Assembly: GCA_964545575.1 (NCBI GenBank)
Contig: CAZJFL010000002.1
Coordinates: forward strand, 59,564 to 123,563
DNA: 64,000 bases
Source of the DNA: an uncultured Planctomycetales bacterium
Lineage (GTDB): Bacteria; Omnitrophota; Gorgyraeia; Gygaellales; Profunditerraquicolaceae
Direction of reading: 5' to 3'
Program-made: the position numbers and the translations under genes
Notes under the pieces: generated by a model
What the model saw: only the letters and a program-made list of their open reading frames with translations
Told to the model about the DNA's origin: nothing
Databases searched by the model: none
Shown: positions 7,478 to 42,015 of the stretch, piece after piece
How positions within the stretch are numbered: position 1 is the stretch's first letter
Layout: each line of letters starts with the position of its first letter

Positions 7478-8712
7478 TTTAGTTCTTTAATTAAGTCTTC
7501 GGCTTTTAGCTCTCTTTGTGCCCCCGATTCCATATCCTTTAAGGTTACTACGCCTTTCTTAAGTTCATCCTCTCCTATAATCAGAACGTATCTGGCGCCT
7601 AAATCATTGGCCTGGCGCAGCGCACCTTTGAGGGATTTACCGGTATAATCGGTATCCGCAGGGATTCCAGCCTTACGCAGCAGATTTAATAATTTTAGGC
7701 CCTCTGCCTTGGCTTCTTCCCCCAAAGATATCAGGTAAACTAACTTGGGGCTTGGAGCTTGGAGCTTGGAGTCAGAAACCAAGAACAGCCTTTCTATGCC
7801 AAAGGCAAAACCCATGGCGCCGGTATCCGGGCCGCCTAATTCCTTAACCAGATTATCATATCTGCCGCCTGCGCCCAGGGCATCCTGAGCGCCTAATCTA
7901 TCGTGTATAATTTCAAAGACGGTGCTGGTATAATAATCCAGGCCGCGCACCAGGCGGGGATTTACGGCATACTTAATTCCTAAAGCATCCAGGCCTTTTT
8001 TCACCCCTTTGAAATGCCCGGCGCAGTCGGCGCAGAGATGTGCGTCGCCAAGCTTCAATGTTTTAATCACCTCAATACAGGCTTCATTTTTACAGTCCAG
8101 GACCCTTAAGATATTGGTTTCAAGCCTCCTGCGACAATCAGCGCAGAGCTTTGCGGTTTTATCTTTCAGGGATTTACCTAACACAGCTACTAACTTTGCT
8201 TTATCTTTGGTGCAGCCCAAGCTGTTAATTTCTATTTTATAATCGGTTATGGAAAAAGCTGCCAGCAGAGCGTCGGCCAGCGCAATCACCTCTGTATCCA
8301 CAGCGGCATCGTGGCCGCCAATGACTTCTACGCCTAAATGATGGAACTGGCGTAATCTTCCTTTTTGCGGCCGCTCCATGCGGAACATCGGCCCCAGGTA
8401 ATAGAGTTTTAAGAAGCCTTTAGTTTTATCCAGGCTATTTTCAAGATAGGCGCGTACCACCGAAGCCGTGCCTTCGGGCCGCAGGGCATATGTGTCGCGC
8501 TCCTTTTTAATCAGAAACATTTGTTTGCGCACGATTTCGGTGGATTCGCCGAGGGAACGGTTGAATAATGCCGCCTCCTCGATTAAAGGCGGGCGGATCT
8601 CCAGGTAATTATAAACAGAGAGTATGCTGCGGGCCGTATTCTCTATGGCCTGCCACCAGGATACTTCTTCGGGCAGTATATCTTTTGTTCCGGTTATTCT
8701 TTTAATCATCAA
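7471..8712 (-). CDS. hisS: Histidine--tRNA ligase
   Basis: 413 aa with N-terminal GTKDILPEE motif, class II core and C-terminal anticodon-binding domain. Contains an in-frame heptamer x3 repeat. Confidence 0.9.
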
Positions 8713-8758
8713 TATTTAGGCAGCGTCGATAAGATTAGCAGATAAGACGGGGTAAGAT

Positions 8759-9031
8759 TTATTTAACCTTTTTCTTCATATCCAGGCCTGGCTTAAAGAC
8801 CACTACTTTTCGAGGCGGGACAGGGACTACTTCGCCGGTACGAGGGTTTCTGCCGGTGCGGCTCTTCCTCTGTTTGATCTTAAAAACACCGAAGTTGCGC
8901 AGCTCTATTTTTTCCCCTCTTATCAGCGCCTCAACAATGCAATCAAAGGTTTTCTGCACGACGCGCTTTACGTCGGTCTGTTTTAAGTTCGTAGCATCGG
9001 AAACCTTCAGGATAATATCTTTCTTGGTCAT
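8759..9031 (-). CDS. hup: HU/IHF family DNA-binding protein
   Basis: The track ORF was trimmed to the internal Met (MTKKDIILKVSD...), which has an AAGGAGGG Shine-Dalgarno 5 nt upstream. Contains the HU signature GFGxFxxxxRxxRxGRNPxTGE. The longer track ORF start lies inside a repeat element. Confidence 0.85.
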   Translation of the reverse strand: MTKKDIILKVSDATNLKQTDVKRVVQKTFDCIVEALIRGEKIELRNFGVFKIKQRKSRTGRNPRTGEVVPVPPRKVVVFKPGLDMKKKVK

Positions 9032-9085
9032 CTTGACCCTCCTTAAGCGAGCAGGGGTTAACCCCGCCTTTGGCAGGGTAAGTTC

Positions 9086-9141
9086 GCGCATATAAGTTAT
9101 GTCGATTAACTAAGTAATAGCTATCTCCATAACTTATGCGC
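9086..9141. repeat. Family C hairpin element (GCGC/GGCC-ATATAAGTTATG ... CATAACTTAT-GCGC/GGCC)
   Basis: GCGCATATAAGTTATG-26 nt loop-CATAACTTATGCGC, between hup and dnaE. Confidence 0.8.
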
Positions 9142-9189
9142 TTACTTAACTATAATAACAGCAAAAACTTACGATGTCAAGAGGAAACT

Positions 9190-12100
9190 CTATATCACTA
9201 AAGATAATTTATCTTCGCCGAGAAGGTTTTCGATATCTTCGATTAATTTCTCCGAAGGAGCAACGTAAAACCCTTCCCCTACCACCAACTGGACGCGGGA
9301 TTTAGCCGGAGTATCCAGGTGCAAATAGATGGGCACGTTCCCGCGCGAAGTAGCTAGTAATCCTTTTAGGCTCTCAAAAAGGTTTTCTCTGGCGCCGGAT
9401 AGATTAATATTCAGGGCAGTGATTAATTTATAGACGTCCTCGACAGGGATTAAGTCATTGACGATGATTTTAGGGGTGTCTTCGCGTAAGGAAAGCCTGC
9501 CCCTGACCAGGACTACGGTATTAGGCTGGATATAGTGGGAGACTTTTTGAAACGCCGCTGGAAAGACGAGAAGTTCTACTATCCCCTCCAGGTCCTCTAA
9601 TTTTAAAATCGCCATTTTTTCCTGTTTTACGCGGGTCAGGGTCTGTTTGATTTTTGAGATCATCCCCACTATTTTTATTTCTTCTGCGTCGGTATGCTGG
9701 CTGAGTTTTGCGATTGAGGTAGAGGCAAAGCGTTTTAAGTGTTGGGCGTAGCGCGCCAAAGGGTGGCCGCTGACGTAAAAGCCGAGCATTTCTTTTTCAA
9801 AAGCGAGCAACTGCGGTTCAGGCCACTCTTTTATTTTGGTAAAACTTTCTTTTAAGCTTTGCTGGAATCCGTTCTGCTTTAATGCCTGATCAAAGAAAGA
9901 TAACTGCCCTTTAGACTGCTCTTTCTGCCTTTTGGAGGAAAGTTCTAATAACCTATCCAGGTTAACCGCCATCTGAGCCCGGGGCATAGTAAAGAAATCC
10001 AGGGCCCCGCATTTAATCAGGCTTTCCAGCACTTTCTTGTTCACTAATCTTAAGTCAATGCGCTGGCAGAGGTCTTCTAATGAGGCAAAGTGCCCCTTTG
10101 TTCTAGCCTGAATTATAGACTCCGCAGCTCCTCTGCCGACATTTTTTATTGCCAGGAGCCCGAAACGGATCTGTTTTTCATCCGCCGCCTTAAACAAGGC
10201 ATCGCTTTCGTTGATATCCGGAGGCAGCACCTGTATGCCCATGTGCGCGGCTTCATTTACGTATTCTACGATTTTGTCGGTATCGTTGCGTTCCGAGGTT
10301 AAGAGCGCGGTCATAAACTCTACAGGGAAATTAGCCTTTAGATATGCAGTGCGGTAAGAAATCAGGGCGTAGGCGGCGCTGTGTGATTTATTGAAGCCGT
10401 ACCCGCAGAAGTGTTCTATGAAATCGAAGGTTTTATTGGCGACGGATTCGCTGATGGCGCCTTTTACGCAGCCTAAGACAAAGTTTTTTCTTTGCTGCTC
10501 CATAACTTCCGGGATTTTCTTGCTCATTGCCCGGCGCAACAAATCTGCCTGGGTGAGGCTAAAACCGGCTAAGGAAGACGCAATCTGCATGACCTGTTCC
10601 TGATAGACCATGATGCCGTAAGTCTCCTTTAAAATCCCCTCGAGTTTTTTGTGGTCGTATCTAATCGGGGTGCGGCCGTGTTTACGCTGGATAAAATCAT
10701 CAAGCATGCCTGAGCCGATGGGCCCGGGGCGGTATAAAGCCAAAAGCGCGATCAGGTCTTCAAACCTCTCCGGCTCCAGTTTTTTCAGCAAATCGCGCAT
10801 CCCGGAACTCTCCACCTGAAATACTCCGCTGGTCTGGGCAGAGGCCAGGAGTTTATAGGTCTTGGGGTCATCCAGGGGAATGTCTTCAATATCAATGGTT
10901 TTGCCCCGCCTCTGCTTTACTATCTTTAAAGTCTGGTCTATCACGGTCAGGGTTCTTAAGCCCAGGAAATCAACTTTCAGCAGCCCGGTTTTTTCCAGCA
11001 TCGTCATGCTGTAACCGGTGGTGATCTGGTCGTCCTGAGTCTTAAATAAAGGCATATAATTATCCAGCGGCTTGTCCGCGATGACCACCCCTGCCGCATG
11101 CACCGAGGCGTGGCGGTTTAAGCCCTCCAGGGATAAAGCCGTATCAATCAGTTGTTTTATCTGCGGGTCGTTTTTATAGAGGCTCTTTAATTCCGCCTCG
11201 CTCTCTAAAGCATCTCTTAAGGTTATGCCCGGGTCAGGGGGGATCATTTTGGCAATCCGGTCCACATCGGCATAGCTTATCCCCATCACTCTTCCGACGT
11301 CCCTGACTACCGCGCGCGCCTGCATCGTCCCGAAAGTGATAATTTGCGCGACATTTTCCTGCCCGTATTTCTTAGTTACGTAATCGATGACCTCCTGCCT
11401 TCTTTCGTAACAGAAATCAATATCTATATCCGGCAGCCCCTGCCTCTGTGGATTCAGGAAGCGCTCGAATAATAAACCATAATTCAAAGGGTTGATATCG
11501 GTAATTCCTAAGAGGTAACTGACCAGGCTTCCCGCAGCCGAGCCCCGGCCGGGCCCCACCGGTATATTCTGGCTCTTAGCGTAATGGATAAAATCCCAGA
11601 CAATTAAAAAATAACTGGTAAAACCCATCTTCTGGATAGTTTCTAATTCGTGTTCCAGGCGCTGGGTGATCTCCGTGCTTAGTGTTTTGAAGCGTTCCTT
11701 TAATCCTTTTTCGCAAAGTTCCCGCAGGAACTCGTCTTTAGTTTTACCTACCGGGGCTTCGTATTTAGGCAGGTGCACTAAAGAGAAATCCAGCTCCAGG
11801 TTGCAGCGCTTAGCTACCTCTTGGGTATTAGCGATGGCTTCGGGAATCTCCTTAAAAAGTTCTTTCATCTCCTGAGGCGACTTAAAATAAAACTCATCGG
11901 TCTGAAAACGCATGCGGTTGGGGTCATCAAGGGTGGTCTGGGTCTGAATGCAGAGCAATGCCTCGTGGCTCCTGGCGTGCTCTTTTAAAAGATAGTGCAC
12001 GTCATTGGTGGCGATCAGGGGAATATTTAATTCTTTGGAGATTTTGATTAACCCCGCATTTACGGCCTTCTGTTCGGGGATTAAATTCTCCTGTACTTCT

Positions 12101-12627: not shown

Positions 12628-12632
12628 TTTGG

Positions 12633-12696
12633 CTTATCGCTTATCGCTTATCGCTTATCGTAGAACGATGTGCGATTTGCGATATGCGCTATGCGA
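12633..12696. repeat. Family B palindromic element, intergenic copy between dnaE and guaA
   Basis: GGCTTATCGCTTATCGCTTATCGCTTATCG-TAGAA-CGATGTGCGATTTGCGATATGCGCTATGCG. Confidence 0.85.
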
Positions 12697-25742: not shown

Positions 25743-25807
25743 CGCTTATCGCTTAGCGCATATTGCTTATCGTCCAAACGATATGCGATTAGCCATATGC
25801 GATATGC
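25743..25807. repeat. Family B palindromic element, intergenic copy between two tRNA genes
   Basis: CGCTTATCGCTTAGCGCATATTGCTTATCG-TCCAAA-CGATATGCGATTAGCCATATGCGATATGC. Confidence 0.8.
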
Positions 25808-34581: not shown

Positions 34582-35463
34582 TTAGATGACCTCTAAGCTT
34601 AAATCTACCGACTCCAGGGAATGGGTTAATTCGCCGATAGAAATAATATCTACCCCGCAGGAGGCGATTTTACGCACACTCTTTAAATCTACGCCGCCGG
34701 AGGTTTCTAGTTTAGTCCGAGGGTGGTGGCTGTTAAAGACAGTGTTATTTCTGATTTTTACCGCTTTTTTAATCTCGGCTAGGTCCATATTATCCAGCAT
34801 AATCACATCGGGTTTAAACCTGAGGGCATGCCTGAACTCATCGAGATTCTGTACTTCTATCTCTATTTTAAACCCTTTGGGCACGCTGGGCAGCCGGTCA
34901 TAACCTGCGGTGACTTTAATATGATTGTCCTTAATCAGAATCATCTCGTCTAAACCCATACGGTGATTGTATCCCCCGCCGATTCTTACGGCGTATTTCT
35001 GCAGTTCGCGCAGGCCAGGCATAGTTTTTCTGGTGTCGGTGATTTTTGTCTTATAGGGCTCTATCTTTCTGACGTATTCGCGGGTCTTAGTAGCCACTCC
35101 CGACATCATCGATATAAGATTAAGCGCTACTCTTTCTGCGGTTAAGATACTCCTGGCTTTTCCGGAAAGTTCGGTGATGATCTTGCCTTTTTGGGCAGGC
35201 TTGCCGTCTTTACTTAAGGGTTTAAAAGAAATGTCCTTATCTACCGCCTTAAACACGGCTTCGGCAACCTCCAGGCCGCAAATTATACAGTCTTCTCTGA
35301 CTAAAATTACGGCCTTAATCTCTTTATCTTCGGGAATAGTGAGCCGGGTAGTGATATCTCCTTTGCCGATATCCTCGATCAGCGCCTTGCGCACGATTAC
35401 TTCCAGCCTTGATTTTTCTATATGGGGAGCCGCATCCGAGAGAAAATATTTATCTAAAGCCAT
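34582..35463 (-). CDS. nadC: Nicotinate-nucleotide pyrophosphorylase (carboxylating)
   Basis: 293 aa, type II PRTase family pattern. Confidence 0.9.
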   Translation of the reverse strand: MALDKYFLSDAAPHIEKSRLEVIVRKALIEDIGKGDITTRLTIPEDKEIKAVILVREDCIICGLEVAEAVFKAVDKDISFKPLSKDGKPAQKGKIITELSGKARSILTAERVALNLISMMSGVATKTREYVRKIEPYKTKITDTRKTMPGLRELQKYAVRIGGGYNHRMGLDEMILIKDNHIKVTAGYDRLPSVPKGFKIEIEVQNLDEFRHALRFKPDVIMLDNMDLAEIKKAVKIRNNTVFNSHHPRTKLETSGGVDLKSVRKIASCGVDIISIGELTHSLESVDLSLEVI

Positions 35464-38299
35464 CTCTTGCCGCCTTTACTTTTTTTAAAGCTTCTTTTAG
35501 CTCCTCTAGTTTAGAGCTTTCTTTTGCTACGATCTCTTCCGGCGCCTTCTTTACAAACTCCTTATTCGCCAAAGTTTTTTCTTTGGCTTTTATTTCTGCT
35601 TCTACTTTAGCGATCCTGTCTTCTAGCTTAGCCTTTTCTTTTTCTATATCGATAACACCTTCTAGGGGAAGAGTGATATGCATGTCTTTGACAATAGCGC
35701 TGATACTGGATTTTATATGGGTATATTTTTGTTCTATATCGAGGCGGCTTAACTTAGCCAGTTTTTTGATCTGGGCAGACAGCCCGGAAACCAGTTCTCT
35801 TGTTTCCTTTGCTGCGCTTGAAATGATGGCGTTTATTTCCTCGTCCTGCGGGATATCCAGCTCCTGGCGCATATTTCTTATAGTGGTGATTGTCTCTAAA
35901 ATCAAGCTCATCCTCTCTTCTAATTTCTTATCGATTATTTGCTCCTGGATGTGCGGCGAGGGCTGAATGCTGATGGATTTCCCTTGATGAGGAAGCGCCT
36001 GCCAGACCTCTTCGCTAATAAAGGGCATAAAAGGATGGATTGCGCGCAGGAACTTTTCCAGCACCTTGTACATGACTACTTGGATTTGCGGATTTTTAAT
36101 ATCTGATTTAATCATCTCCAGGTACCAGTCGCAGAACTCATGCCAGAAGAAGCCGTATAAAAGGTTTGCCGCTTCGTTAAAACGGTAAGCCGCCAAATTA
36201 TTATTTACTTGCTTAAGCGTAGAATAAAATCTGCTTAAAATCCAGCGGTTAACTAAGCCAAATCCTTTATAAGGGGCTGTCCCCGCAGAAGGCGGGGCAC
36301 CAAACCATTCCCGCAAAGGCGGGACACCGACGCATCCTTTAGCGTCGGGTGCAGGTTTGGGTGCCTCCGTAATACCAAGATTCATCAGGATAAACCGGGA
36401 GGCGTTCCAGATTTTGTTGGCAAAGTTCCTTCCCTGTTCAAATCTTTCTTTGGAAAGATGCACATCCTGGCCCTGGGCCGTGATTGCAATCAGGCTGAAA
36501 CGCAGAGCATCGGCGCCGTATTCATTAATAATGTCCAGCGGGTCAATGATATTGCCCAGCGACTTGGACATCTTTTTGCCTTCGATATCGCGCACTGTGC
36601 CGTGGATATAGACATCCTTAAAGGGTATCTCTTTCATGAATTCCAGGCCCGCCATGATCATGCGCGCCACCCAGAAGAAAATGATTTCCGGAGCAGTAAC
36701 CAGAACCGAGGTAGGGTAAAAATAAGCTAAATCTTTTTGCTTATCGCTTATCGCTAATCGCTTATCGTCTTGCACGATATGCGATATGCGATATGCGCTA
36801 TGCTCGAATGGCCAGTAAAAGACCGCAAACGGCCACAGCCAGGAAGAAAACCAGGTATCCAGCACGTCTTCGTCCTGATAGATATCAGTCGAGCCGCAAT
36901 GTGGACACTTGTCGGGTTTAATTCTGGAAACTATAACTCCCTCCTGCTTATCGCTTATCGCTAATCGCTTATTGGCCTTTTGCGATATGCGATATGCGAT
37001 ATGCGATATGCAGTTCTTACAATAATAAACCGGCAACCTGTGCCCCCACCAGATCTGGCGCGAGATGCACCATTCTTGAATATTCTCCATCCAGTCCAAA
37101 TATACCTTAGTCCAGCGCTGCGGATAGAATTTAATTTTACCCTTTTTAACTGCCTCTATCGCCGGTTTTGCCAGCGACTGCATCTTCACAAACCATTGTT
37201 TGGATAAATACGGCTCAATAATGGTGTGGCAACGGTAACAATGGCCTGCGGATAACGGATGAGGTTCGACTTTTTCTAGCAATCCTTTTTCCTTTAAATC
37301 CTCCAGAATTACTTCCCGCGCCTGGAATCTATCCATATCTTTATAATCACCGGCAAACTCATTCATGCGTCCGTCAGGATGCATCACGTTGATAAACTCC
37401 AGCTTATGTTTCTTTCCTAAAAGATAGTCATTAGGATCGTGCGCCGGAGTTACCTTAACCGCACCTGTGCCAAATTTCATATCCACCAGGCTATCGGCAA
37501 TGATTTTTATCTGCCGGTTGATCAATGGTAAAATCAGGATTTTACCGACGAGTTTTTTATAGCGTTTATCTTTGGGGTTGACCGCAACGGCTGTATCTCC
37601 GAGCATGGTTTCCGGACGTGTAGTCGCTACTACGACATGATCAGGGACAGTCCCCTTCAGGGACAGTCCCTGTGCTTCCTTTAGCGGATACCTCAAGTAA
37701 TATAAATTTCCCTGCAATTCGTGGTGTGGCGCCTCTTCGTCAGAAAGGGCAGTCTGGCAGCGCGGGCACCAGTTGATGATGTAGCTGCCTCTATAAATCA
37801 GGCCCTTCTCGTATAATCTGACAAAAACTTCAATCACAGCTTGAGAGTATTCTTCATCCATGGTAAAGCGCGTACGCGACCAGTCGCAGGAAACACCTAG
37901 CTTCTTTAACTGATGAATTATAGTTACACCGTATTGCTCCTTCCATTGCCAGACCCGCGCAATGAATTTTTCCCGGCCTAAGTCCTGACGCTTCAGTCCT
38001 TCTTTGGCGATCGCCTTTTCTACCACATTTTGCGTAGCGATTCCGGCGTGGTCAGTTCCCGGCATCCAGAGGGATTCTTCGCCTTGCATGCGGTGATAAC
38101 GGATAAGGATATCCTGAATAGTGTTATTCAGGGCGTGTCCCATATGCAGAATCCCGGTAACATTTGGCGGCGGGATGACTATAGAGAAAGGCTTTTTTGC
38201 AGGGTCTGCTTTTGCGGCAAAAAGATTATTCTCTTCCCAGAATTTGTACCACTTCTCTTCGGTTTCCTTAGGGCTATATCGAGTAGGTATTTCATTCAT
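35450..38299 (-). CDS. valS: Valine--tRNA ligase carrying two in-frame palindromic-repeat insertions
   Basis: 949 aa class I aaRS with HIGH (ILHMGHALN), WCISRQ, the zinc knuckle CKNC...CPHCGS and KMSKS. Two ~66 bp repeat copies encode the extra peptides ...SHIAYRISQKANKRLAISDKQEG... and ...HSAYRISHIVQDDKRLAISDKQKD... Confidence 0.95.
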   Translation of the reverse strand: MNEIPTRYSPKETEEKWYKFWEENNLFAAKADPAKKPFSIVIPPPNVTGILHMGHALNNTIQDILIRYHRMQGEESLWMPGTDHAGIATQNVVEKAIAKEGLKRQDLGREKFIARVWQWKEQYGVTIIHQLKKLGVSCDWSRTRFTMDEEYSQAVIEVFVRLYEKGLIYRGSYIINWCPRCQTALSDEEAPHHELQGNLYYLRYPLKEAQGLSLKGTVPDHVVVATTRPETMLGDTAVAVNPKDKRYKKLVGKILILPLINRQIKIIADSLVDMKFGTGAVKVTPAHDPNDYLLGKKHKLEFINVMHPDGRMNEFAGDYKDMDRFQAREVILEDLKEKGLLEKVEPHPLSAGHCYRCHTIIEPYLSKQWFVKMQSLAKPAIEAVKKGKIKFYPQRWTKVYLDWMENIQEWCISRQIWWGHRLPVYYCKNCISHIAYRISQKANKRLAISDKQEGVIVSRIKPDKCPHCGSTDIYQDEDVLDTWFSSWLWPFAVFYWPFEHSAYRISHIVQDDKRLAISDKQKDLAYFYPTSVLVTAPEIIFFWVARMIMAGLEFMKEIPFKDVYIHGTVRDIEGKKMSKSLGNIIDPLDIINEYGADALRFSLIAITAQGQDVHLSKERFEQGRNFANKIWNASRFILMNLGITEAPKPAPDAKGCVGVPPLREWFGAPPSAGTAPYKGFGLVNRWILSRFYSTLKQVNNNLAAYRFNEAANLLYGFFWHEFCDWYLEMIKSDIKNPQIQVVMYKVLEKFLRAIHPFMPFISEEVWQALPHQGKSISIQPSPHIQEQIIDKKLEERMSLILETITTIRNMRQELDIPQDEEINAIISSAAKETRELVSGLSAQIKKLAKLSRLDIEQKYTHIKSSISAIVKDMHITLPLEGVIDIEKEKAKLEDRIAKVEAEIKAKEKTLANKEFVKKAPEEIVAKESSKLEELKEALKKVKAARDGFR
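36740..36804. repeat. Family B palindromic element (CTTATCG)n-loop-(CGATATG)n, copy inside valS
   Basis: GCTTATCGCTTATCGCTAATCGCTTATCG-TCTTGCA-CGATATGCGATATGCGATATGCGCTATGC. In frame in valS. Confidence 0.9.
36948..37012. repeat. Family B palindromic element, second copy inside valS
   Basis: GCTTATCGCTTATCGCTAATCGCTTATTGGCCTTTTGCGATATGCGATATGCGATATGCGATATGC. In frame in valS. Confidence 0.9.
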
Positions 38300-38304
38300 A
38301 AAAG

Positions 38305-38445
38305 TTAATGGGTATTAAGTATTTTTGTATCGATTTTTTCAAGATCCTTTTTATAACCTAATTTATATCCAGCGACAAGCAAAAATATCATTAAAAGAAC
38401 AGCTATAAGCATGGTAATTTTAAGTAAGTATCGTTTTTTAATCAT
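38305..38445 (-). CDS. Small hypothetical membrane protein (47 aa) in an AT-rich insertion; not in the ORF track
   Basis: Manual translation gives MIKKRYLLKITMLIAVLLMIFLLVAGYKLGYKKDLEKIDTKILNTH. Contains a degenerate copy of the cimA 3'-terminal sequence. Confidence 0.3.
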   Translation of the reverse strand: MIKKRYLLKITMLIAVLLMIFLLVAGYKLGYKKDLEKIDTKILNTH

Positions 38446-38451
38446 TTTGGT

Positions 38452-38652
38452 TTAAATCTTTCCTGCGCGGAATTTATCCTGAAGTTCAACAATTCTTTTT
38501 GGAAGCCTCTTCCTTACTATATACCAAAAATCCCACATTTGCTCTAAGCATTTAAGTCGTTGATACGGTGTTGTATTTTTTACCGCATCCTCAAGATGCT
38601 CAAAAGGCTCTATATCATGAATTTTTAAATTATTTTCTTTTATTTTGTTCAC
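38452..38652 (-). CDS. Hypothetical protein (66 aa) in an AT-rich insertion
   Basis: ORF overlapping the end of the upstream nucleotidyltransferase-fold gene by 23 bp. No recognisable domain. Confidence 0.35.
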   Translation of the reverse strand: MNKIKENNLKIHDIEPFEHLEDAVKNTTPYQRLKCLEQMWDFWYIVRKRLPKRIVELQDKFRAGKI

Positions 38653-39139
38653 TTCTTAACCTCTCGATTTCTTCCAAGTTTCTGACGTCTATGAAATCTT
38701 TCGCTCTTTTAGCCAGTAATTTCAATTTTTTAAGGTGGGCTATGCAAACTACGGGAAAAACCAGGCCTTTTATACTTATTTTCTCTATTCTTTTTTCTAT
38801 ATCGTTAAACTTTATCGGTTCAGTTATAAATGCGTCTACTAATTTTAAATGGTCTTTAAGATGGAAAAATGAAAATACTACCATACCTTTTTTCTGTATC
38901 CACTCTTGGCGCTTTTGTTTATTTTTAAAATCTTCTTTTGTAACCGGAATTTTTGGCCTGTATCCTAAATTATAGAGCGCATCAAAAAACTTATCTAGGT
39001 TCCTTTCGCTTAATTCAACAATTAAATCTAAATCCACGGTTAATCTTGTATAACCATATAAAACAACTGCTACCCCCCCAGCAATTGCATATTTAACTTT
39101 ATTTTTATTTAAAGCTCTAATTACTTCGTTATAATACAT
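38630..39139 (-). CDS. Pol-beta-superfamily nucleotidyltransferase-fold protein (possible toxin-antitoxin or defence component)
   Basis: 169 aa. AIAGGVAVVLYGYTRLTVDLDLIV fits the hG[GS]-x9-13-Dh[DE]h minimal nucleotidyltransferase signature. Embedded in a ~27% GC region. Confidence 0.5.
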   Translation of the reverse strand: MYYNEVIRALNKNKVKYAIAGGVAVVLYGYTRLTVDLDLIVELSERNLDKFFDALYNLGYRPKIPVTKEDFKNKQKRQEWIQKKGMVVFSFFHLKDHLKLVDAFITEPIKFNDIEKRIEKISIKGLVFPVVCIAHLKKLKLLAKRAKDFIDVRNLEEIERLRSEQNKRK

Positions 39140-39208
39140 CTATTGCACCCTATCCTTTAATAATTTATACTCTACGCTATCCACTAAGGCCTGTCCTTCG
39201 ACTTTGCT

Positions 39209-40783
39209 TTAGGACTGCGCTTTTTGATCCTTCAATAATTTATATTCTACACTATCGACCAAAGCTTGCCAGCTGGCTTCGATGATGTTTTCCGAAACAC
39301 CGATGGTGCTCCAGGTATCTTTTTCATCCTGCGATTGGATCAAAACGCGCACCTTAGCGGCAGTGCCTGCTTTTTCATCCAATACGCGCACCTTAAAATC
39401 CGAAAGGTGCATTTTAGAGAGCGCAGGATAAAATTCTTTTAAGGCTTTGCGCAGGGCATTATCCAACGCATTTACCGGGCCGTCTCCATCAGCGGCAGTA
39501 TGCTCCTTGGTACCCCTGACTTTTAGCTTCATGATTGCTTCGGAAGTAATTTTTTTATTTGCTTGTTTTTCCACCACTACGCGGAACCCTTCCAATTCAA
39601 AGAATTTTTTATAAATTTTGAACGCCTTCTTCATCAACAGCTCAAAAGAAGCCTCTGCTGCTTCAAAGTGATAACCCTGGTGTTCGAGTTTCTGAATCAG
39701 CTTAAGGATCCTTTTGGTCTTAGGATCATCTTTGCTGAGATCTAATTTGATATCTTTGGCGCGTAGCAAGATTCCGGTTTTACCCGCCAGTTCCGACATC
39801 AGGACCCGGCGCCTATTTCCTACGAGATCCGGCTCGATATGCTCATAAGTCTTAGGGTTTTTCATCACCGCGTTAATATGCACCCCGCCTTTATGCGCAA
39901 AAGCCGAAGCTCCGGTATAGGGCTGGTCGCTCCTCTGTTTCATATTACTGATTTCGCTGACAAAATGTGATACCTTAGTCAATTCCCTCAATTTATCGTC
40001 TGAAATACAATGCATGCCCAACTTTAATTTAAGGTTGGCGATGATCGGGATTAAATCCGCATTACCGCAGCGCTCTCCATATCCGTTAATCGTCCCCTGC
40101 ACCATATCTGCTCCTGCCTCTACCGCGGCAATAGAATTTGCTACGGCTAAATCCGCATCATTGTGGCAATGAATCCCTAACCAAACCTTAATTTTTGGCC
40201 GGGCCTCCCGGACTACCTTTGAAATTTCAGAAGTCAGGGTTCCGCCGTTAGTATCGCATAAAACTACCGCTCTTGCGCCCGCTTCCTGCGCCGTCATTAG
40301 GCATCTTAAAGAATATCCTGGATTTGCCGCGTAAGCATCAAAAAAATGTTCGGCATCATAAAATACCGTCAGGCCCTTGGAAACTAAAAAGGCAACCGTA
40401 TCTTTAATCATGCTTAAATTTTCTTCCAGGGTCGTCTTTAAAACATCGGTAATATGTAAATCCCAGGTTTTGCCGAAAATTGTAATTACCTGAGCCTGCG
40501 ATTTTACCAACGCCTTAAGGTTAGCGTCATCTAAAGGCTTGGTATGCGGCCTTCTGGTTGAGCCAAAAGCCACGAGCTCCGCATTTTTCAGCCGGGATTT
40601 ACCCATCTTCAGAAAAAACTCCATATCTTTAGGATTTGACCCCGGCCAGCCGCCTTCAATATAATGGACGCCCAGCCTATCCAGTTCGCGGGCAATGGCG
40701 ATCTTATCCATGACCGAATAAGAGATGCCTTCCCCTTGCGCGCCGTCGCGTAAAGTCGTATCGTATAATTTTACCTTGGACAT
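39209..40783 (-). CDS. cimA: (R)-citramalate synthase / 2-isopropylmalate synthase family
   Basis: 524 aa. N-terminus LYDTTLRDGAQGEGISYSVMDKIAIARELDRLGVHYIEGGWPGSNPKDMEFF matches the CimA-type DRE-TIM enzymes. C-terminal LeuA-dimer-like regulatory domain. Confidence 0.8.
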   Translation of the reverse strand: MSKVKLYDTTLRDGAQGEGISYSVMDKIAIARELDRLGVHYIEGGWPGSNPKDMEFFLKMGKSRLKNAELVAFGSTRRPHTKPLDDANLKALVKSQAQVITIFGKTWDLHITDVLKTTLEENLSMIKDTVAFLVSKGLTVFYDAEHFFDAYAANPGYSLRCLMTAQEAGARAVVLCDTNGGTLTSEISKVVREARPKIKVWLGIHCHNDADLAVANSIAAVEAGADMVQGTINGYGERCGNADLIPIIANLKLKLGMHCISDDKLRELTKVSHFVSEISNMKQRSDQPYTGASAFAHKGGVHINAVMKNPKTYEHIEPDLVGNRRRVLMSELAGKTGILLRAKDIKLDLSKDDPKTKRILKLIQKLEHQGYHFEAAEASFELLMKKAFKIYKKFFELEGFRVVVEKQANKKITSEAIMKLKVRGTKEHTAADGDGPVNALDNALRKALKEFYPALSKMHLSDFKVRVLDEKAGTAAKVRVLIQSQDEKDTWSTIGVSENIIEASWQALVDSVEYKLLKDQKAQS

Positions 40784-40791
40784 TTTTTACC

Positions 40792-42015
40792 TCAACTTTT
40801 TTTCAGACCAAACTTTTCATGCAGCGCCCTGACTGCGATTTCCCCGAATTTCTTCTGTATAATACAAGATATACTGATATCGGAAGTAGAGATCATTTCT
40901 ATATTGATTTTATTCCTGGCTAAAGCGTCAAACATAGTAGCCGCTACTCCGGAATGCGATTTCATGCCTACGCCGACTATAGAAACTCTGGAGATAGCCT
41001 GATCTTCTAAGACGTCGCCCGCGCCGATATTTTTGGCGATTCTTTTGGCGACCTTTAATGTTTTTAAGGCATTGGCTTTATTGACGGTAAAAGATATGTC
41101 GGTCTTACGCGTATGACTGACGTTTTGCACGATCATATCCACGCTGATACCGCCTTCGGAGAGTTTCTTAAAAATCTTGGCCGCAATTCCCGGACGGTCA
41201 GGTACATCGCAAACAGTCACCTTAACTTCGTTTTTATTCAGCGTTACGCCTGTTACGACTACGTCTTCCATGCGTTTAGCCTCCTTAATAATCCTAGTTC
41301 CGGTACTTTTAGAAAATGACGAACGCACGTGTATCGGCACGTCAAACTTTTTTGCCACTTCAATGGAGCGCGCCTGCATTACCTGAGCGCCGAGGGATGC
41401 CATTTCCAGCATTTCGTCATAAGTAATCTGGTTTATTTTTCTGGCTCTTTGCTCTATGCGCGGATCGGTAGTATACACCCCTTCTACGTCGGTATAGATT
41501 TCGCATTCCTCTGCGGCTAGTTCTTTTGCCAGGGCTACGGCAGTTAAATCCGAACCGCCTCTGCCTAAGGTAGTGATATCCTGATTCAAGGTAACCCCCT
41601 GAAATCCGGCGACAATCACAATTTTACCTTTTCCAAGCTCCTCTTTTATCTTATCGGCGTTTATTTTGATGATCCGCGCGCGGGTGTGGCTGGCGTCAGT
41701 AATGATACCTACCTGCGCCCCGGTAAAGGAGATTGCCTGATACCCTAATTTATCTATGGCCATGGCCAGAAGCGCTACCGATATCTGTTCTCCCGTAGAC
41801 AAAAGCATGTCCATTTCGCGCTCAGGCGGTTCCAACGTAATTTTACTAGCCAACTCAATCAGCTCGTCGGTAGTGTCGCCGAGGGCTGAAACCACCACTA
41901 CCAGATCATAACCTCTCTTGCGATAGTTCACTACTCTTTTGGCTACATTCTGTATACACTGCGCATTAGCCACAGATGAGCCGCCGAATTTTTGCACAAT
42001 TAACCTCTTAGGCAT
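40792..42015 (-). CDS. lysC: Aspartate kinase
   Basis: 407 aa, amino-acid kinase fold (KFGGSSV) plus two C-terminal ACT domains. Confidence 0.92.
   Translation of the reverse strand: MPKRLIVQKFGGSSVANAQCIQNVAKRVVNYRKRGYDLVVVVSALGDTTDELIELASKITLEPPEREMDMLLSTGEQISVALLAMAIDKLGYQAISFTGAQVGIITDASHTRARIIKINADKIKEELGKGKIVIVAGFQGVTLNQDITTLGRGGSDLTAVALAKELAAEECEIYTDVEGVYTTDPRIEQRARKINQITYDEMLEMASLGAQVMQARSIEVAKKFDVPIHVRSSFSKSTGTRIIKEAKRMEDVVVTGVTLNKNEVKVTVCDVPDRPGIAAKIFKKLSEGGISVDMIVQNVSHTRKTDISFTVNKANALKTLKVAKRIAKNIGAGDVLEDQAISRVSIVGVGMKSHSGVAATMFDALARNKINIEMISTSDISISCIIQKKFGEIAVRALHEKFGLKKS

What the first reader, a model, noticed from the sequence alone, without database searches (positions are those of the whole stretch)
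38340..39257. AT-rich ~0.85 kb insertion at the 3' end of cimA, flanked by degenerate direct repeats of the cimA terminus and carrying a nucleotidyltransferase-fold gene
The region between the valS start and the cimA stop (38300-39208) is ~27% GC, against roughly 45% for the flanks. It encodes a pol-beta-type nucleotidyltransferase-fold protein (GG-x13-DLDL) and two small ORFs (66 aa, and a 47 aa membrane peptide).

The last ~25 bp of cimA (GAATATAAATTATTGAAGGATC..., encoding EYKLLKDQ) recur in two degenerate copies on the same strand. One sits immediately downstream of the cimA stop (39150-39182) and encodes a vestigial ...VEYKLLKDRVQ* that ends 1 nt before the nucleotidyltransferase gene ATG. 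The other sits at the far side of the island (38343-38374, GGATATAAATTAGGTTATAAAAAGGATC), inside the 47 aa ORF.

This arrangement is the signature of site-specific integration into the 3' end of a gene, with the element restoring the target terminus (attL/attR). No integrase remains. The island is therefore either a decayed integrative element or a compact mobile cassette, possibly a minimal-nucleotidyltransferase toxin-antitoxin or defence module.
Basis: partly seen in the sequence, partly recalled or inferred. Interest (0 to 1): 0.7.

Follow-up and report, generated by a model that had tools for sequence, protein, structure and literature searches.

The report
Toxin-like gene cassette between cimA and valS
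A small AT-rich, toxin–antitoxin-like gene cassette sits between two housekeeping genes in an uncultured Omnitrophota bacterium; it has moved between lineages at this one spot, and the nearby repeat of the cimA gene end looks like a recombination scar, not an attachment-site pair.

Summary
The AT-rich island is real: 31% GC against 46%, the lowest-GC stretch of the 64-kb window. So is the adjacent degenerate copy of the cimA 3' end (42 nt, 83% identical, 0 of 2000 shuffles reach its score). The proposed far-side copy is at chance level (43% of shuffles) and lies in a small membrane-protein gene conserved in one other lineage.

The island encodes a 169-aa nucleotidyltransferase. Its confident model best matches the M. 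tuberculosis tRNA-modifying toxin MenT1, and the catalytic residues are invariant. It also encodes an obligately linked 66-aa helical partner.

Most related Omnitrophota have an empty site, with cimA abutting valS. At least ten lineages carry the cassette at exactly this junction. Cassette similarity is uncorrelated with host similarity, and the gene pair also occurs at other loci.

The att interpretation does not hold in this genome:
- Both real repeats lie on one side of the cassette.
- The same duplication occurs in a relative without the cassette.
- One relative has the cimA-tail repeat on the cassette's other side, and another duplicates the valS head instead.
- No integrase is nearby.

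Recombination anchored in the conserved flanks fits best. It is a new variant of the MenT/AbiE-type modules, of moderate interest.

The parts
39209..40783 (-). cimA (citramalate/2-isopropylmalate synthase family, 524 aa), ending ...ALVDSVEYKLLKDQKAQS*. This 'KD-x-KA-x-S' tail is a native variant also seen in L126, L128, L013 and L119.
   Evidence: Pfam HMGL-like, HCS_D2 and LeuA_dimer; tails compared.
39227..39268 (-). Copy 1 of the repeat: the functional cimA 3' end, codons QALVDSVEYKLLKD.
   Evidence: the repeat finder family D1.
39191..39208 (-). 18-nt spacer between the cimA stop and the vestigial tail (AGCAAAGTCGAAGGACAG). Its first bases are homologous to the native post-stop sequence of L126/L128. 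The rest is shared with the spacers of L013 and L119.
   Evidence: Sequence comparisons.
39140..39190 (-). Vestigial cimA tail (ALVDSVEYKLLKDRVQ*). It is a recombination scar and matches the cimA|NT junction of cassette-bearing relatives. Its TAG abuts the NT169 ATG.
   Evidence: Score 28 against shuffle mean 8.4, with 0 of 2000 shuffles reaching it. The junction is identical in form to L091 (KDRV**ATG), L093 and L096. All differences from copy 1 are synonymous third positions.
38630..39139 (-). NT169: a 169-aa pol-beta-fold nucleotidyltransferase. It is MenT1-like and belongs to the DUF6036/DUF2204/AbiEii-related group. It is the putative toxin.
   Evidence: AF2 pLDDT 94. Foldseek best hits are MenT1 8an5/8an4, TM 0.68-0.69, E 7e-8. 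A family profile matches 8an4 at E 1e-6. G21 G22 T34 D36 D38 K140 R145 D148 D151 are invariant.
38452..38652 (-). p66: a 66-aa three-helix protein overlapping the NT169 3' end by 23 nt. It is the obligate partner of the nucleotidyltransferase and the putative antitoxin or regulator.
   Evidence: It accompanies the NT at the cimA|valS junction and at other loci (L103, L125). There are 11 homologue clusters with a conserved EPFEHL..NTTPYQR..W..RK..LQDKF motif. The model has pLDDT 82. No Pfam, PDB or fold match was found.
38305..38445 (-). p46: a 46-aa single-pass membrane peptide, an optional third gene of the cassette.
   Evidence: A homologue sits in the same position in L108 (50% identity overall, 79% over the C-terminal 19 aa). 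It is absent from L096, L099, L123 and L121. The repeat similarity is at chance level.
35450..38299 (-). valS (valyl-tRNA synthetase, 949 aa). Its ATG lies 5 nt after the p46 stop. It is the conserved right-hand flank and the likely homologous anchor.
   Evidence: Pfam tRNA-synt_1, Anticodon_1 and Val_tRNA-synt_C; synteny.

Best explanation
The island is a compact two-gene cassette with an optional third gene: NT169, p66 and p46. It is of the nucleotidyltransferase toxin-antitoxin kind and sits exactly between the stop codon of a cimA tail and the start of valS, inside the conserved ask-cimA-valS-nadC gene string of an Omnitrophota bacterium.

Inferred function. NT169 is a MenT1-like enzyme. 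By analogy, it would add nucleotides to tRNA 3' ends and block aminoacylation. The co-translated helical p66 would hold it in check, either by binding over the active site or by inducing auto-phosphorylation of Thr34. This has not been tested.

Shown:
- The cassette is absent from this junction in most relatives.
- It is present at exactly this junction in at least ten lineages.
- Its sequence relationships are decoupled from those of the host genes.
- The NT-p66 pair also occurs at unrelated loci.
Together these show that the cassette is exchanged horizontally.

Inferred mechanism of exchange. Recombination is anchored in the highly conserved flanks, namely the last ~40 nt of cimA and the first ~100 nt of valS. 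Often there is one homologous crossover and one illegitimate joint, as in homology-facilitated illegitimate recombination. This leaves occasional short duplications of the cimA tail or the valS head.

The duplicated cimA terminus in the window is such a scar. Foreign DNA beginning inside a donor's cimA 3' end was joined just downstream of the native cimA stop. The scar is shared with L119 and with L013, which lacks the cassette. It is therefore not a product of integration of this cassette copy and is not an att site pair.
For: Function:
- The NT169 model has pLDDT 94.3. Its best solved-structure matches are MenT1 8an5/8an4 (TM 0.68-0.69, 22-23% identity, E 7e-8 to 1e-6), ahead of LnuA, TM1012 and ANT(2'')-Ia.
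- A family profile hits MenT1 at E 1e-6 and aligns both the RxTxDxD region and the K...RxxDxxD region.
- G21/G22, T34, D36, D38, K140, D148 and D151 are invariant in 63 homologues. They correspond to MenT1 T39, D41, K137, D149 and D152, which are needed for activity or phosphorylation (PMC11375011, PMC10435456).
- p66 always accompanies the NT, with overlapping reading frames. This holds at cimA|valS, in a TA-rich island (L103) and in a Hydrogenedentota MAG, where the pair stands alone behind an inverted repeat (L125).
- MenA1 is likewise a 68-aa helical antitoxin (PMC10435456).

Mobility:
- Empty sites occur in most relatives.
- The cassette is present at the same junction in the window, L091, L093/95/107, L096, L099, L108, L109, L111, L113, L123 and L119.
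- NT GC3 is 0.23-0.26 in hosts whose GC3 is 0.30-0.51.
- Pairwise identities among 10 lineages give rho 0.78 for cimA against ask and 0.65 for cimA against valS. For cimA against NT, rho is about -0.1, with a Mantel permutation p of 0.66.

Scars:
- L013 has the tail duplication without the cassette.
- L119 has the same layout as the window, but its NT has an internal deletion.
- L093/L107 carry a vestigial tail to the right of p66.
- L108 has a duplicated valS head plus a ~14-nt remnant of a donor tail before the NT ATG.
- Differences between functional and vestigial tails are synonymous third positions. For the window this is 6 of 6 within the 39-nt block (chance 5e-4) or 7 of 7 within the 42-nt repeat (chance 1.3e-4). 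This indicates origin from a different, functional cimA allele.
- The native tail type is followed directly by valS in L126 and L128.
Against: - No toxicity, tRNA modification or NT-p66 interaction has been measured.
- The window protein itself is below the gathering score of every Pfam family (AbiEii 15.4 bits against 22.5). It has no PADLOC or NCBIfam hit.
- Gene order (enzyme first, small partner second) is the reverse of MenA1-MenT1 (PMC7450476). p66 shows no similarity to any known antitoxin.
- The cassette has no detectable promoter of its own here. It is embedded in a housekeeping operon with stop-start abutment, which is unusual for an autonomous toxin-antitoxin module.
- Recombination between lineages whose synonymous sites are saturated (third-position identity 0.40-0.54) is hard for RecA-type homologous exchange. 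Identical runs in the cimA tail are at most about 11 nt.
- The vestigial tail shared by the window, L119 and L013 has only 1-2 changes in 26 first and second codon positions, while 6-10 of 13 third positions differ (P about 5e-6 under neutrality). A one-off old scar does not explain this. It needs repeated overwriting or some unknown constraint.
Confidence: 0.55

Rival explanations
1. The cassette is a site-specific, integron-cassette-like element that uses the conserved cimA tail as its attachment site. A recombinase acts in trans, and the element supplies a replacement cimA terminus.
For: - The cassette is always at the same nucleotide-level position (cimA stop abutting the NT ATG), even in hosts with only 62-67% CimA identity.
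- In L093/L107 the cassette is flanked by direct repeats of the cimA tail.
- The residues after KD co-vary with the adjacent NT allele: RV with MYYNEV in the window and L091, and KVE with MYYD(E/G)V in L093, L119 and L108.
- The vestigial tail is unexpectedly well preserved.
- The 5' ends of the two independent cimA-tail relics, the shared window/L013/L119 relic and the L093/L107 relic, lie within about 6 nt of each other.
Against: - In the window the far-side repeat is at chance level.
- The duplication exists without the cassette in L013.
- L108 duplicates the valS head, and its left breakpoint is at the KD codons, a different position.
- Six lineages have no repeat at all.
- There is no integrase in the 16-kb context.
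- The NT-p66 pair at other loci (L103, L125) has no cimA-like flank.
- A DNA-recognition site should be conserved at third codon positions too, yet those vary freely.
- No viral or plasmid carrier was found.
Confidence: 0.14
2. The three genes are an old, vertically inherited accessory part of the ask-cimA-valS operon in a clade of Omnitrophota. They have been lost many times. Their low GC content reflects protein or expression constraints, not foreign origin.
For: - The arrangement is conserved in at least ten lineages, with tight stop-start coupling to cimA.
- Nine metagenome contigs from different samples carry an identical island.
- There is no promoter or terminator signal above chance between cimA and valS.
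Against: - Cassette identities are uncorrelated with host identities, whereas host genes correlate with each other. For example, L091 has 65% CimA identity but 81% NT identity, while L096 has 83% CimA identity but 72% NT identity.
- NT GC3 stays at 0.23-0.26 regardless of host GC3.
- The pair occurs at unrelated loci and in another phylum.
- Recombination scars surround it.
Confidence: 0.12
3. NT169 is a small-molecule nucleotidyltransferase, for example an aminoglycoside or lincosamide resistance enzyme of the ANT(2'')/LnuA type. It is not a toxin, and p66 is an unrelated small gene.
For: - The top Pfam hit for the window protein is Aminoglyc_resit (E 0.004, below threshold), and 49 of 63 family members hit it weakly.
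- LnuA and ANT(2'')-Ia are among the fold matches (TM 0.56-0.59).
Against: - MenT1 is the best match by both fold and profile.
- The C-terminal K...RxxDxxD region aligns with the MenT1 (DUF1814-family) C-terminal region that holds K137, D149 and D152 (PMC7450476).
- The strict linkage and frame overlap with p66 across different loci suggest a two-component module.
Confidence: 0.08

Closest known systems
MenA1-MenT1 (Rv0078B-Rv0078A) toxin-antitoxin system of Mycobacterium tuberculosis; DUF1814/AbiEii nucleotidyltransferase toxins
   Same: - A small single-domain pol-beta-fold nucleotidyltransferase (169 aa against 196 aa). MenT1 is the best structural match (TM 0.69) and the best profile match.
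- The equivalents of T39, D41, K137, D149 and D152 are invariant (PMC11375011).
- It is paired with a helical protein of about 66-68 aa encoded by an adjacent, overlapping gene (PMC10435456).
   Different: - Only 22-23% identity, and below the Pfam AbiEii threshold.
- The partner lies downstream, not upstream (PMC7450476), and has no detectable sequence or fold similarity to MenA1 or any other antitoxin.
- It sits inside a housekeeping operon with no promoter of its own detected.
- Some lineages carry an optional third membrane-peptide gene.
- Activity is untested.
Pfam DUF6036 / DUF2204 (TM1012-like) uncharacterised nucleotidyltransferases
   Same: 58 of 63 family members hit DUF6036 and 39 hit DUF2204. 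TM1012 structures are among the fold matches. One homologue is named 'DUF6036 family nucleotidyltransferase' by NCBI.
   Different: The window protein itself scores below threshold. These families have no assigned function, and no paper in the searched library mentions DUF6036.
Homology-facilitated illegitimate recombination, as described for naturally transformable bacteria (from my own knowledge, not checked in the library)
   Same: It involves one conserved flank as an anchor and a second joint without extended homology. Foreign DNA is added, and a short stretch next to the joint is duplicated. This matches L108, L093 and the window/L119/L013 scar.
   Different: It is inferred only from end products in metagenome assemblies. 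Donor and recipient are not known, and natural competence of these organisms is unknown. The repeated use of a single junction and the preservation of the scar are not typical.
Integrative elements that target the 3' end of a gene and restore it (attL/attR direct repeats)
   Same: - The insertion lies at a gene's 3' end, and empty sites exist in relatives.
- There is a second copy of the gene terminus that differs only at synonymous sites.
- One lineage (L093/L107) has the repeats on both sides of the cassette.
   Different: - There is no integrase.
- The repeats do not flank the cassette in this genome.
- The duplication also occurs without the cassette.
- A different scar, of the valS head, occurs in L108.

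Membership tests
Integrative element with attL/attR at a gene 3' end | Significant direct repeats of the target terminus on both sides of the inserted DNA | tested here: not met
   Only the two copies at 39152-39193 and 39227-39268 are significant, and both lie on the cimA side. The far-side match at 38343-38374 is reached by 43% of shuffles.
Integrative element with attL/attR at a gene 3' end | A cognate integrase or recombinase in or next to the element | tested here: not met
   The precomputed Pfam lists for all called genes of the identical 16-kb contig L001 show only housekeeping families. The three island proteins have no recombinase hit. The rest of the genome could not be searched.
Integrative element with attL/attR at a gene 3' end | An empty target site in related genomes | tested here: met
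   cimA stop to valS ATG is between -8 and about 100 nt in most of about 60 Omnitrophota loci. This includes L126 and L128, which have the same tail type as the window.
Integrative element with attL/attR at a gene 3' end | The repeat is produced by the insertion, so it should be absent where the element is absent | tested here: not met
   L013 has the same tail duplication and a homologous spacer, but no cassette.
MenT / AbiEii (DUF1814) nucleotidyltransferase toxins | N-terminal pol-beta motifs I and II (hGG ... DxD) | tested here: met
   G21 G22 and T34-x-D36-x-D38 are invariant in 63 homologues. They align to the RFTRDVD segment of MenT1.
MenT / AbiEii (DUF1814) nucleotidyltransferase toxins | C-terminal motifs III and IV (conserved Lys, then R..D..D), the latter unique to DUF1814 (PMC7450476) | tested here: met
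   K140, R145, D148 and D151 are invariant. They align to MenT1 ...MKLLA....RRPQDRSD.
MenT / AbiEii (DUF1814) nucleotidyltransferase toxins | Sequence score above the curated family threshold (Pfam PF08843) | tested here: not met
   The window protein scores 15.4 bits against a cut-off of 22.5. 30 of 63 relatives hit at E <= 0.01.
MenT / AbiEii (DUF1814) nucleotidyltransferase toxins | MenT-type fold | tested here: met
   Foldseek places MenT1 8an5/8an4 as the top hits, with TM 0.68-0.69 and probability 1.00, using a model of pLDDT 94.
MenT / AbiEii (DUF1814) nucleotidyltransferase toxins | Growth inhibition by the enzyme and neutralisation by the adjacent gene product | not testable with these tools
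   This needs expression experiments. Only genetic linkage of NT and p66 across loci is shown.
MenT / AbiEii (DUF1814) nucleotidyltransferase toxins | A known antitoxin family as partner (MenA1-like, COG5340 AbiEi, COG4861), encoded upstream | tested here: not met
   p66 is downstream and has no Pfam, NCBIfam, PADLOC, PDB-sequence or fold match.
MNT-HEPN (type VII) toxin-antitoxin pairs | A HEPN-domain partner with an Rx4-6H motif next to the minimal nucleotidyltransferase | tested here: not met
   p66 has no HEPN hit, and no R-x(4-6)-H is found among its conserved residues (alignment). A genuine MNT-HEPN pair lies elsewhere, in L103.
Pfam DUF6036 | Score above threshold for PF19502 | tested here: inconclusive
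   The window protein has no PF19502 hit at E <= 1, but 58 of 63 aligned relatives hit it.

The most novel reading that the evidence does not exclude
The conserved last ~40 nt of cimA, together with the stop-start junction, act as a dedicated docking site for promoterless gene cassettes. These include the MenT1-like pair here and other cargo such as a 3-kb AAA-ATPase gene set in other lineages. The cassettes would be shuttled between deeply diverged Omnitrophota by a recombination system not yet identified. The vestigial cimA tail would be kept intact because it is still used as that site. It shows 1-2 changes in 26 first and second codon positions, even though synonymous sites are saturated.
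Probability: 0.12. Interest if true: 0.75.

Novelty: new variant of a known kind. Interest (0 to 1): 0.42.

Why it matters
- It extends the MenT/AbiE nucleotidyltransferase toxin family to a minimal, uncharacterised branch (DUF6036-like) in an uncultured phylum. This branch has a new small partner protein and reversed gene order, which gives a concrete pair to test for tRNA-end modification and its control.
- It is a clear natural example of one chromosomal junction between two essential-pathway genes serving repeatedly as the landing place for the same accessory cassette across lineages whose synonymous sites are saturated. The scars left behind record how the DNA came in.
- A duplicated gene terminus next to an AT-rich island is not enough to call an att site.

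Tried and rejected
1. The far-side 'third copy' as attR was rejected by the shuffle test and by its conservation as part of p46 in L108.
2. A simple local tandem duplication of the cimA end was rejected. The sequence after copy 1 is not similar to the sequence after copy 2, and all differences between the copies are synonymous.
3. Recent gene conversion from copy 1 was considered. It is weak, because the copies within a genome (5-8 differences) are only slightly more alike than copies between genomes (5-11 differences).
4. Translation of the vestigial tail was considered. It is in frame behind one TAA in the window, but in the +1 frame in L013 and the -1 frame in L119. No start codon is conserved (read directly from the sequences). 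Rejected as a general explanation.
5. A promoter inside the tail was considered, but nothing rises above chance.
6. A phage or plasmid vehicle was sought. There is no viral contig hit and no phage hit. Only weak N-terminal matches occur on a few plasmids.
7. PADLOC and NCBIfam gave nothing for the three proteins.
8. The fold search with p66 gave nothing.
9. There are no paralogues of NT169, p66 or p46 in the window.
10. A scan for vestigial cimA tails in all fetched loci found them only in the window and its identical contigs, L013, L119 and L093/L095/L107.


Full report
**What is in the window**

All genes around the finding are on the minus strand:

| Gene | Coordinates |
|---|---|
| ask | 40792-42015 |
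| cimA | 39209-40783 |
| 169-aa ORF (NT169) | 38630-39139 |
| 66-aa ORF (p66), overlapping NT169 by 23 nt | 38452-38652 |
| 46-aa ORF (p46) | 38305-38445 |
| valS, starting 5 nt after the p46 stop | 35450-38299 |
| nadC | 34582-35463 |

The closest CimA relatives are all Candidatus Omnitrophota MAGs.

**Check of the observation**

The stretch 38300-39208 is 31.1% GC. cimA is 45.5%, valS 45.7% and the window 46.6%. The three ORFs form the lowest-GC 835-nt stretch of the whole window, at 0.304 against a mean of 0.467 (sd 0.028).

The repeat of the cimA terminus directly downstream of the cimA stop is real:
- Window 39152-39193 matches 39227-39268 over 42 nt at 83% identity.
- The local alignment scores 28 against 8.4 ± 1.6 for dinucleotide shuffles, and 0 of 2000 shuffles reach it.
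- It reads QALVDSVEYKLLKDRVQ*, and its TAG directly abuts the NT169 ATG.

The proposed far-side copy at 38343-38374 is not supported. Its score is 10 against a shuffle mean of 9.7, and 43% of shuffles reach it. The matching letters are part of a p46 motif (GYKLGYKKD) that is conserved in the p46 homologue of L108, the one other lineage found to carry p46.

The island and one repeat are real. The repeat pair flanking the island is not.

**What the proteins are**

NT169 is below threshold for every Pfam family, with weak hits to Aminoglyc_resit, AbiEii and DUF2204. It has at least 173 homologues, mostly from Omnitrophota metagenomes. Of 63 aligned relatives, 58 hit DUF6036, 39 hit DUF2204 and 30 hit AbiEii.

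Invariant residues are G21 G22, R32, T34, D36, D38, D102, K140, R145, D148 and D151. The AlphaFold model built on this alignment is confident, with pLDDT 94.3 and pTM 0.88.

Its best solved-structure matches are the M. tuberculosis toxin MenT1, alone and in the MenA1 complex (8an4/8an5; TM 0.68-0.69, 22-23% identity, E 7e-8 to 1e-6). These rank ahead of LnuA, TM1012 and ANT(2'')-Ia. A profile of the family also finds MenT1 as the best PDB sequence (E 1e-6). It aligns both the RxTxDxD segment and the K...RxxDxxD segment.

In MenT1, residues T39, D41, K137 and D152 are the conserved fold residues needed for tRNA 3'-end extension or for antitoxin-induced auto-phosphorylation (PMC10435456, PMC11375011). 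The four-motif definition of the family is given in PMC7450476. NT169 has the equivalents.

p66 is a three-helix protein (pLDDT 82) with a strongly conserved EPFEHL..NTTPYQR..W..RK..LQDKF pattern. It has no match in Pfam, NCBIfam, PADLOC, PDB sequences or PDB folds.

p66 is found only next to NT169-type genes, always downstream with overlapping frames. This holds at cimA|valS, in a TA-rich island of another Omnitrophota genome (L103) and in a Hydrogenedentota MAG (L125). In L125 the pair stands alone behind an 8-nt inverted repeat.

MenA1 is also a 68-aa helical protein, but it is encoded upstream and is unrelated in sequence (PMC7450476, PMC10435456). The pair therefore works like a MenAT1-type module on present evidence. 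Toxicity and neutralisation are inferred, not shown.

p46 is a single-pass membrane peptide present in the window and in L108 only.

**The locus in relatives**

The string ask-cimA-valS-nadC is conserved across Omnitrophota. In most of about 60 loci, cimA ends between -8 and about 100 nt from the valS ATG.

The NT-p66 cassette occupies exactly this junction in at least ten further lineages: L091, L093/95/107, L096/110, L099, L108, L109, L111/116, L113, L123 and L119. Usually the true cimA stop abuts the NT start, as in KDRV**ATG, KDKVE*ATG and KDKIQ*ATG.

Other lineages carry different cargo at the same junction. L019, L022, L028 and L044 have a 3-kb AAA-ATPase gene set, and L048 has a distant NT alone.

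NT GC3 is 0.23-0.26 in hosts whose GC3 ranges from 0.30 to 0.51.

Among ten cassette-bearing lineages, pairwise identities behave as follows:

| Comparison | Spearman rho |
|---|---|
| cimA against ask | 0.78 |
| cimA against valS | 0.65 |
| cimA against NT | about -0.1 (Mantel permutation p 0.66) |

For example, L091 has 65% CimA identity to the window but 81% NT identity. L096 has 83% CimA identity but 72% NT identity. The cassette is therefore exchanged between lineages, yet it lands at the same place.

**What the repeat is**

The vestigial tail plus NT start in the window (KDRVQ*ATG-MYYNEV) has the form of the normal cimA|NT junction of cassette-bearing relatives. L091 is the closest, with KDRV**ATG-MYYNEV.

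The functional tail (KDQKAQS*) is a native variant. L126 (KDTKAKS*) and L128 (KDQKADSPKDK*) have it followed by valS after 10 and 4 nt, with neither relic nor cassette.

L013 has the same tail type, a homologous spacer and a vestigial tail (AAFVDSVEYKLLKDKVSN). That tail abuts valS, with no cassette. L119 has the window's layout, but its NT carries a large internal deletion. The duplication is therefore shared by three lineages and does not depend on the presence of the cassette.

Two other kinds of scar exist:
- In L093/L107 a vestigial tail (MRKPAWVDSIEYKLLKDKVT*) lies immediately to the right of p66.
- In L108 the first ~31 codons of valS are duplicated to the left of the cassette. A ~14-nt remnant of a donor tail (..KVE) precedes the NT ATG.

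Differences between functional and vestigial tails are synonymous third-position changes. In the window this is 6 of 6 within the 39-nt ALVDSVEYKLLKD block, or 7 of 7 within the 42-nt repeat. The chance of that placement is 5e-4 and 1.3e-4 respectively. The vestigial pieces therefore come from other, functional cimA alleles rather than from local duplication.

Breakpoints are variable and homology is one-sided. There is no integrase in the 16-kb context and no viral or plasmid carrier. This fits recombination anchored in the conserved flanks with one illegitimate joint. It does not fit a single att crossover.

**What remains unexplained**

Third-position identity of cimA between the window, L119 and L013 is only 0.45-0.51, so synonymous sites are saturated. 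Yet the vestigial ALVDSVEYKLLKD codons of these three differ at 6-10 of 13 third positions and at only 1-2 of 26 first and second positions. Under neutral decay this has P of about 5e-6.

The stretch just upstream of the relic was read by eye. It looks like decayed cimA codons with a shared deletion.

The relic is in three different frame relations to cimA and has no conserved start codon (my reading). Translation is therefore unlikely.

Two explanations remain. One is repeated overwriting during cassette exchange. The other is use of the tail as a recombination site. I could not decide between them, and this is the basis of the 'novel case'.

**Verdict**

The island is a real, horizontally exchanged, MenT1-like nucleotidyltransferase/partner cassette at a recurrent insertion point. 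The adjacent repeat is a real recombination scar. The attL/attR reading of this locus is not supported.

It is a new variant of a known kind of system: the partner is new, the gene order is reversed, and the cassette is embedded in an operon. Interest is moderate.

Noticed in passing
window 36738-36803 and 36945-37011 (inside valS); also 12631-12694 and 25785-25807: A dispersed element of about 66 nt is built from heptamer repeats, (CGCTTAT)x3-4 followed by (GCGATAT)x3, with the two halves roughly inverted. Two copies lie in frame inside valS. They encode AYRIS..KRLAISDKQ in two loops that are variable and low-complexity in other Omnitrophota ValS proteins.
   Followed up: partly
window 39140-39190; L119 2950-3000; L013 5586-5640: The vestigial cimA tail shows a strong purifying-selection-like pattern across three deeply diverged lineages: 1-2 changes in 26 first and second codon positions against 6-10 of 13 third positions. 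It is not in a conserved reading frame and has no conserved start codon.
   Followed up: partly
L019 7569-10744, L022 7569-10841, L028 9854-12714, L044 7743-10632: In other Omnitrophota the same cimA|valS junction holds a conserved set of about 3 kb and four genes: an AAA+ ATPase of ~515 aa, a 234-aa zinc-ribbon membrane protein, and proteins of ~135 aa and ~68 aa. In L028 it lies behind an additional 681-aa membrane-protein ORF (7587-9632). The junction is a general variable spot.
   Followed up: no
L108 1250-1410 and 2249 onward: The first ~31 codons of valS are duplicated almost identically to the left of the cassette, followed by GC-rich filler. This is direct evidence for an illegitimate joint with a valS anchor.
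   Followed up: yes
L119 3001-3190: This cassette is in decay. NT residues 1-51 are intact, then an internal deletion runs into the p66 region, while the flanking vestigial tail is intact.
   Followed up: partly
L121 206-1847: In the P0008 lineage the NT-p66-valS arrangement is kept. The left neighbour, however, is a 260-aa protein and a bAvd-like gene (an accessory gene of diversity-generating retroelements) rather than cimA.
   Followed up: no
L125 3940-4000: In a Hydrogenedentota MAG the NT-p66 pair stands alone. It is preceded by a perfect inverted repeat, CTCTATAA-N7-TTATAGAG, and a TATAAT, which looks like an operator/promoter of an autonomous module.
   Followed up: no
L103 2984-8633: A more distant NT plus a 55-aa partner lies in an island rich in toxin-antitoxin genes (a PhdYeFM antitoxin, ORF6N, and a genuine MNT-HEPN pair).
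   Followed up: no
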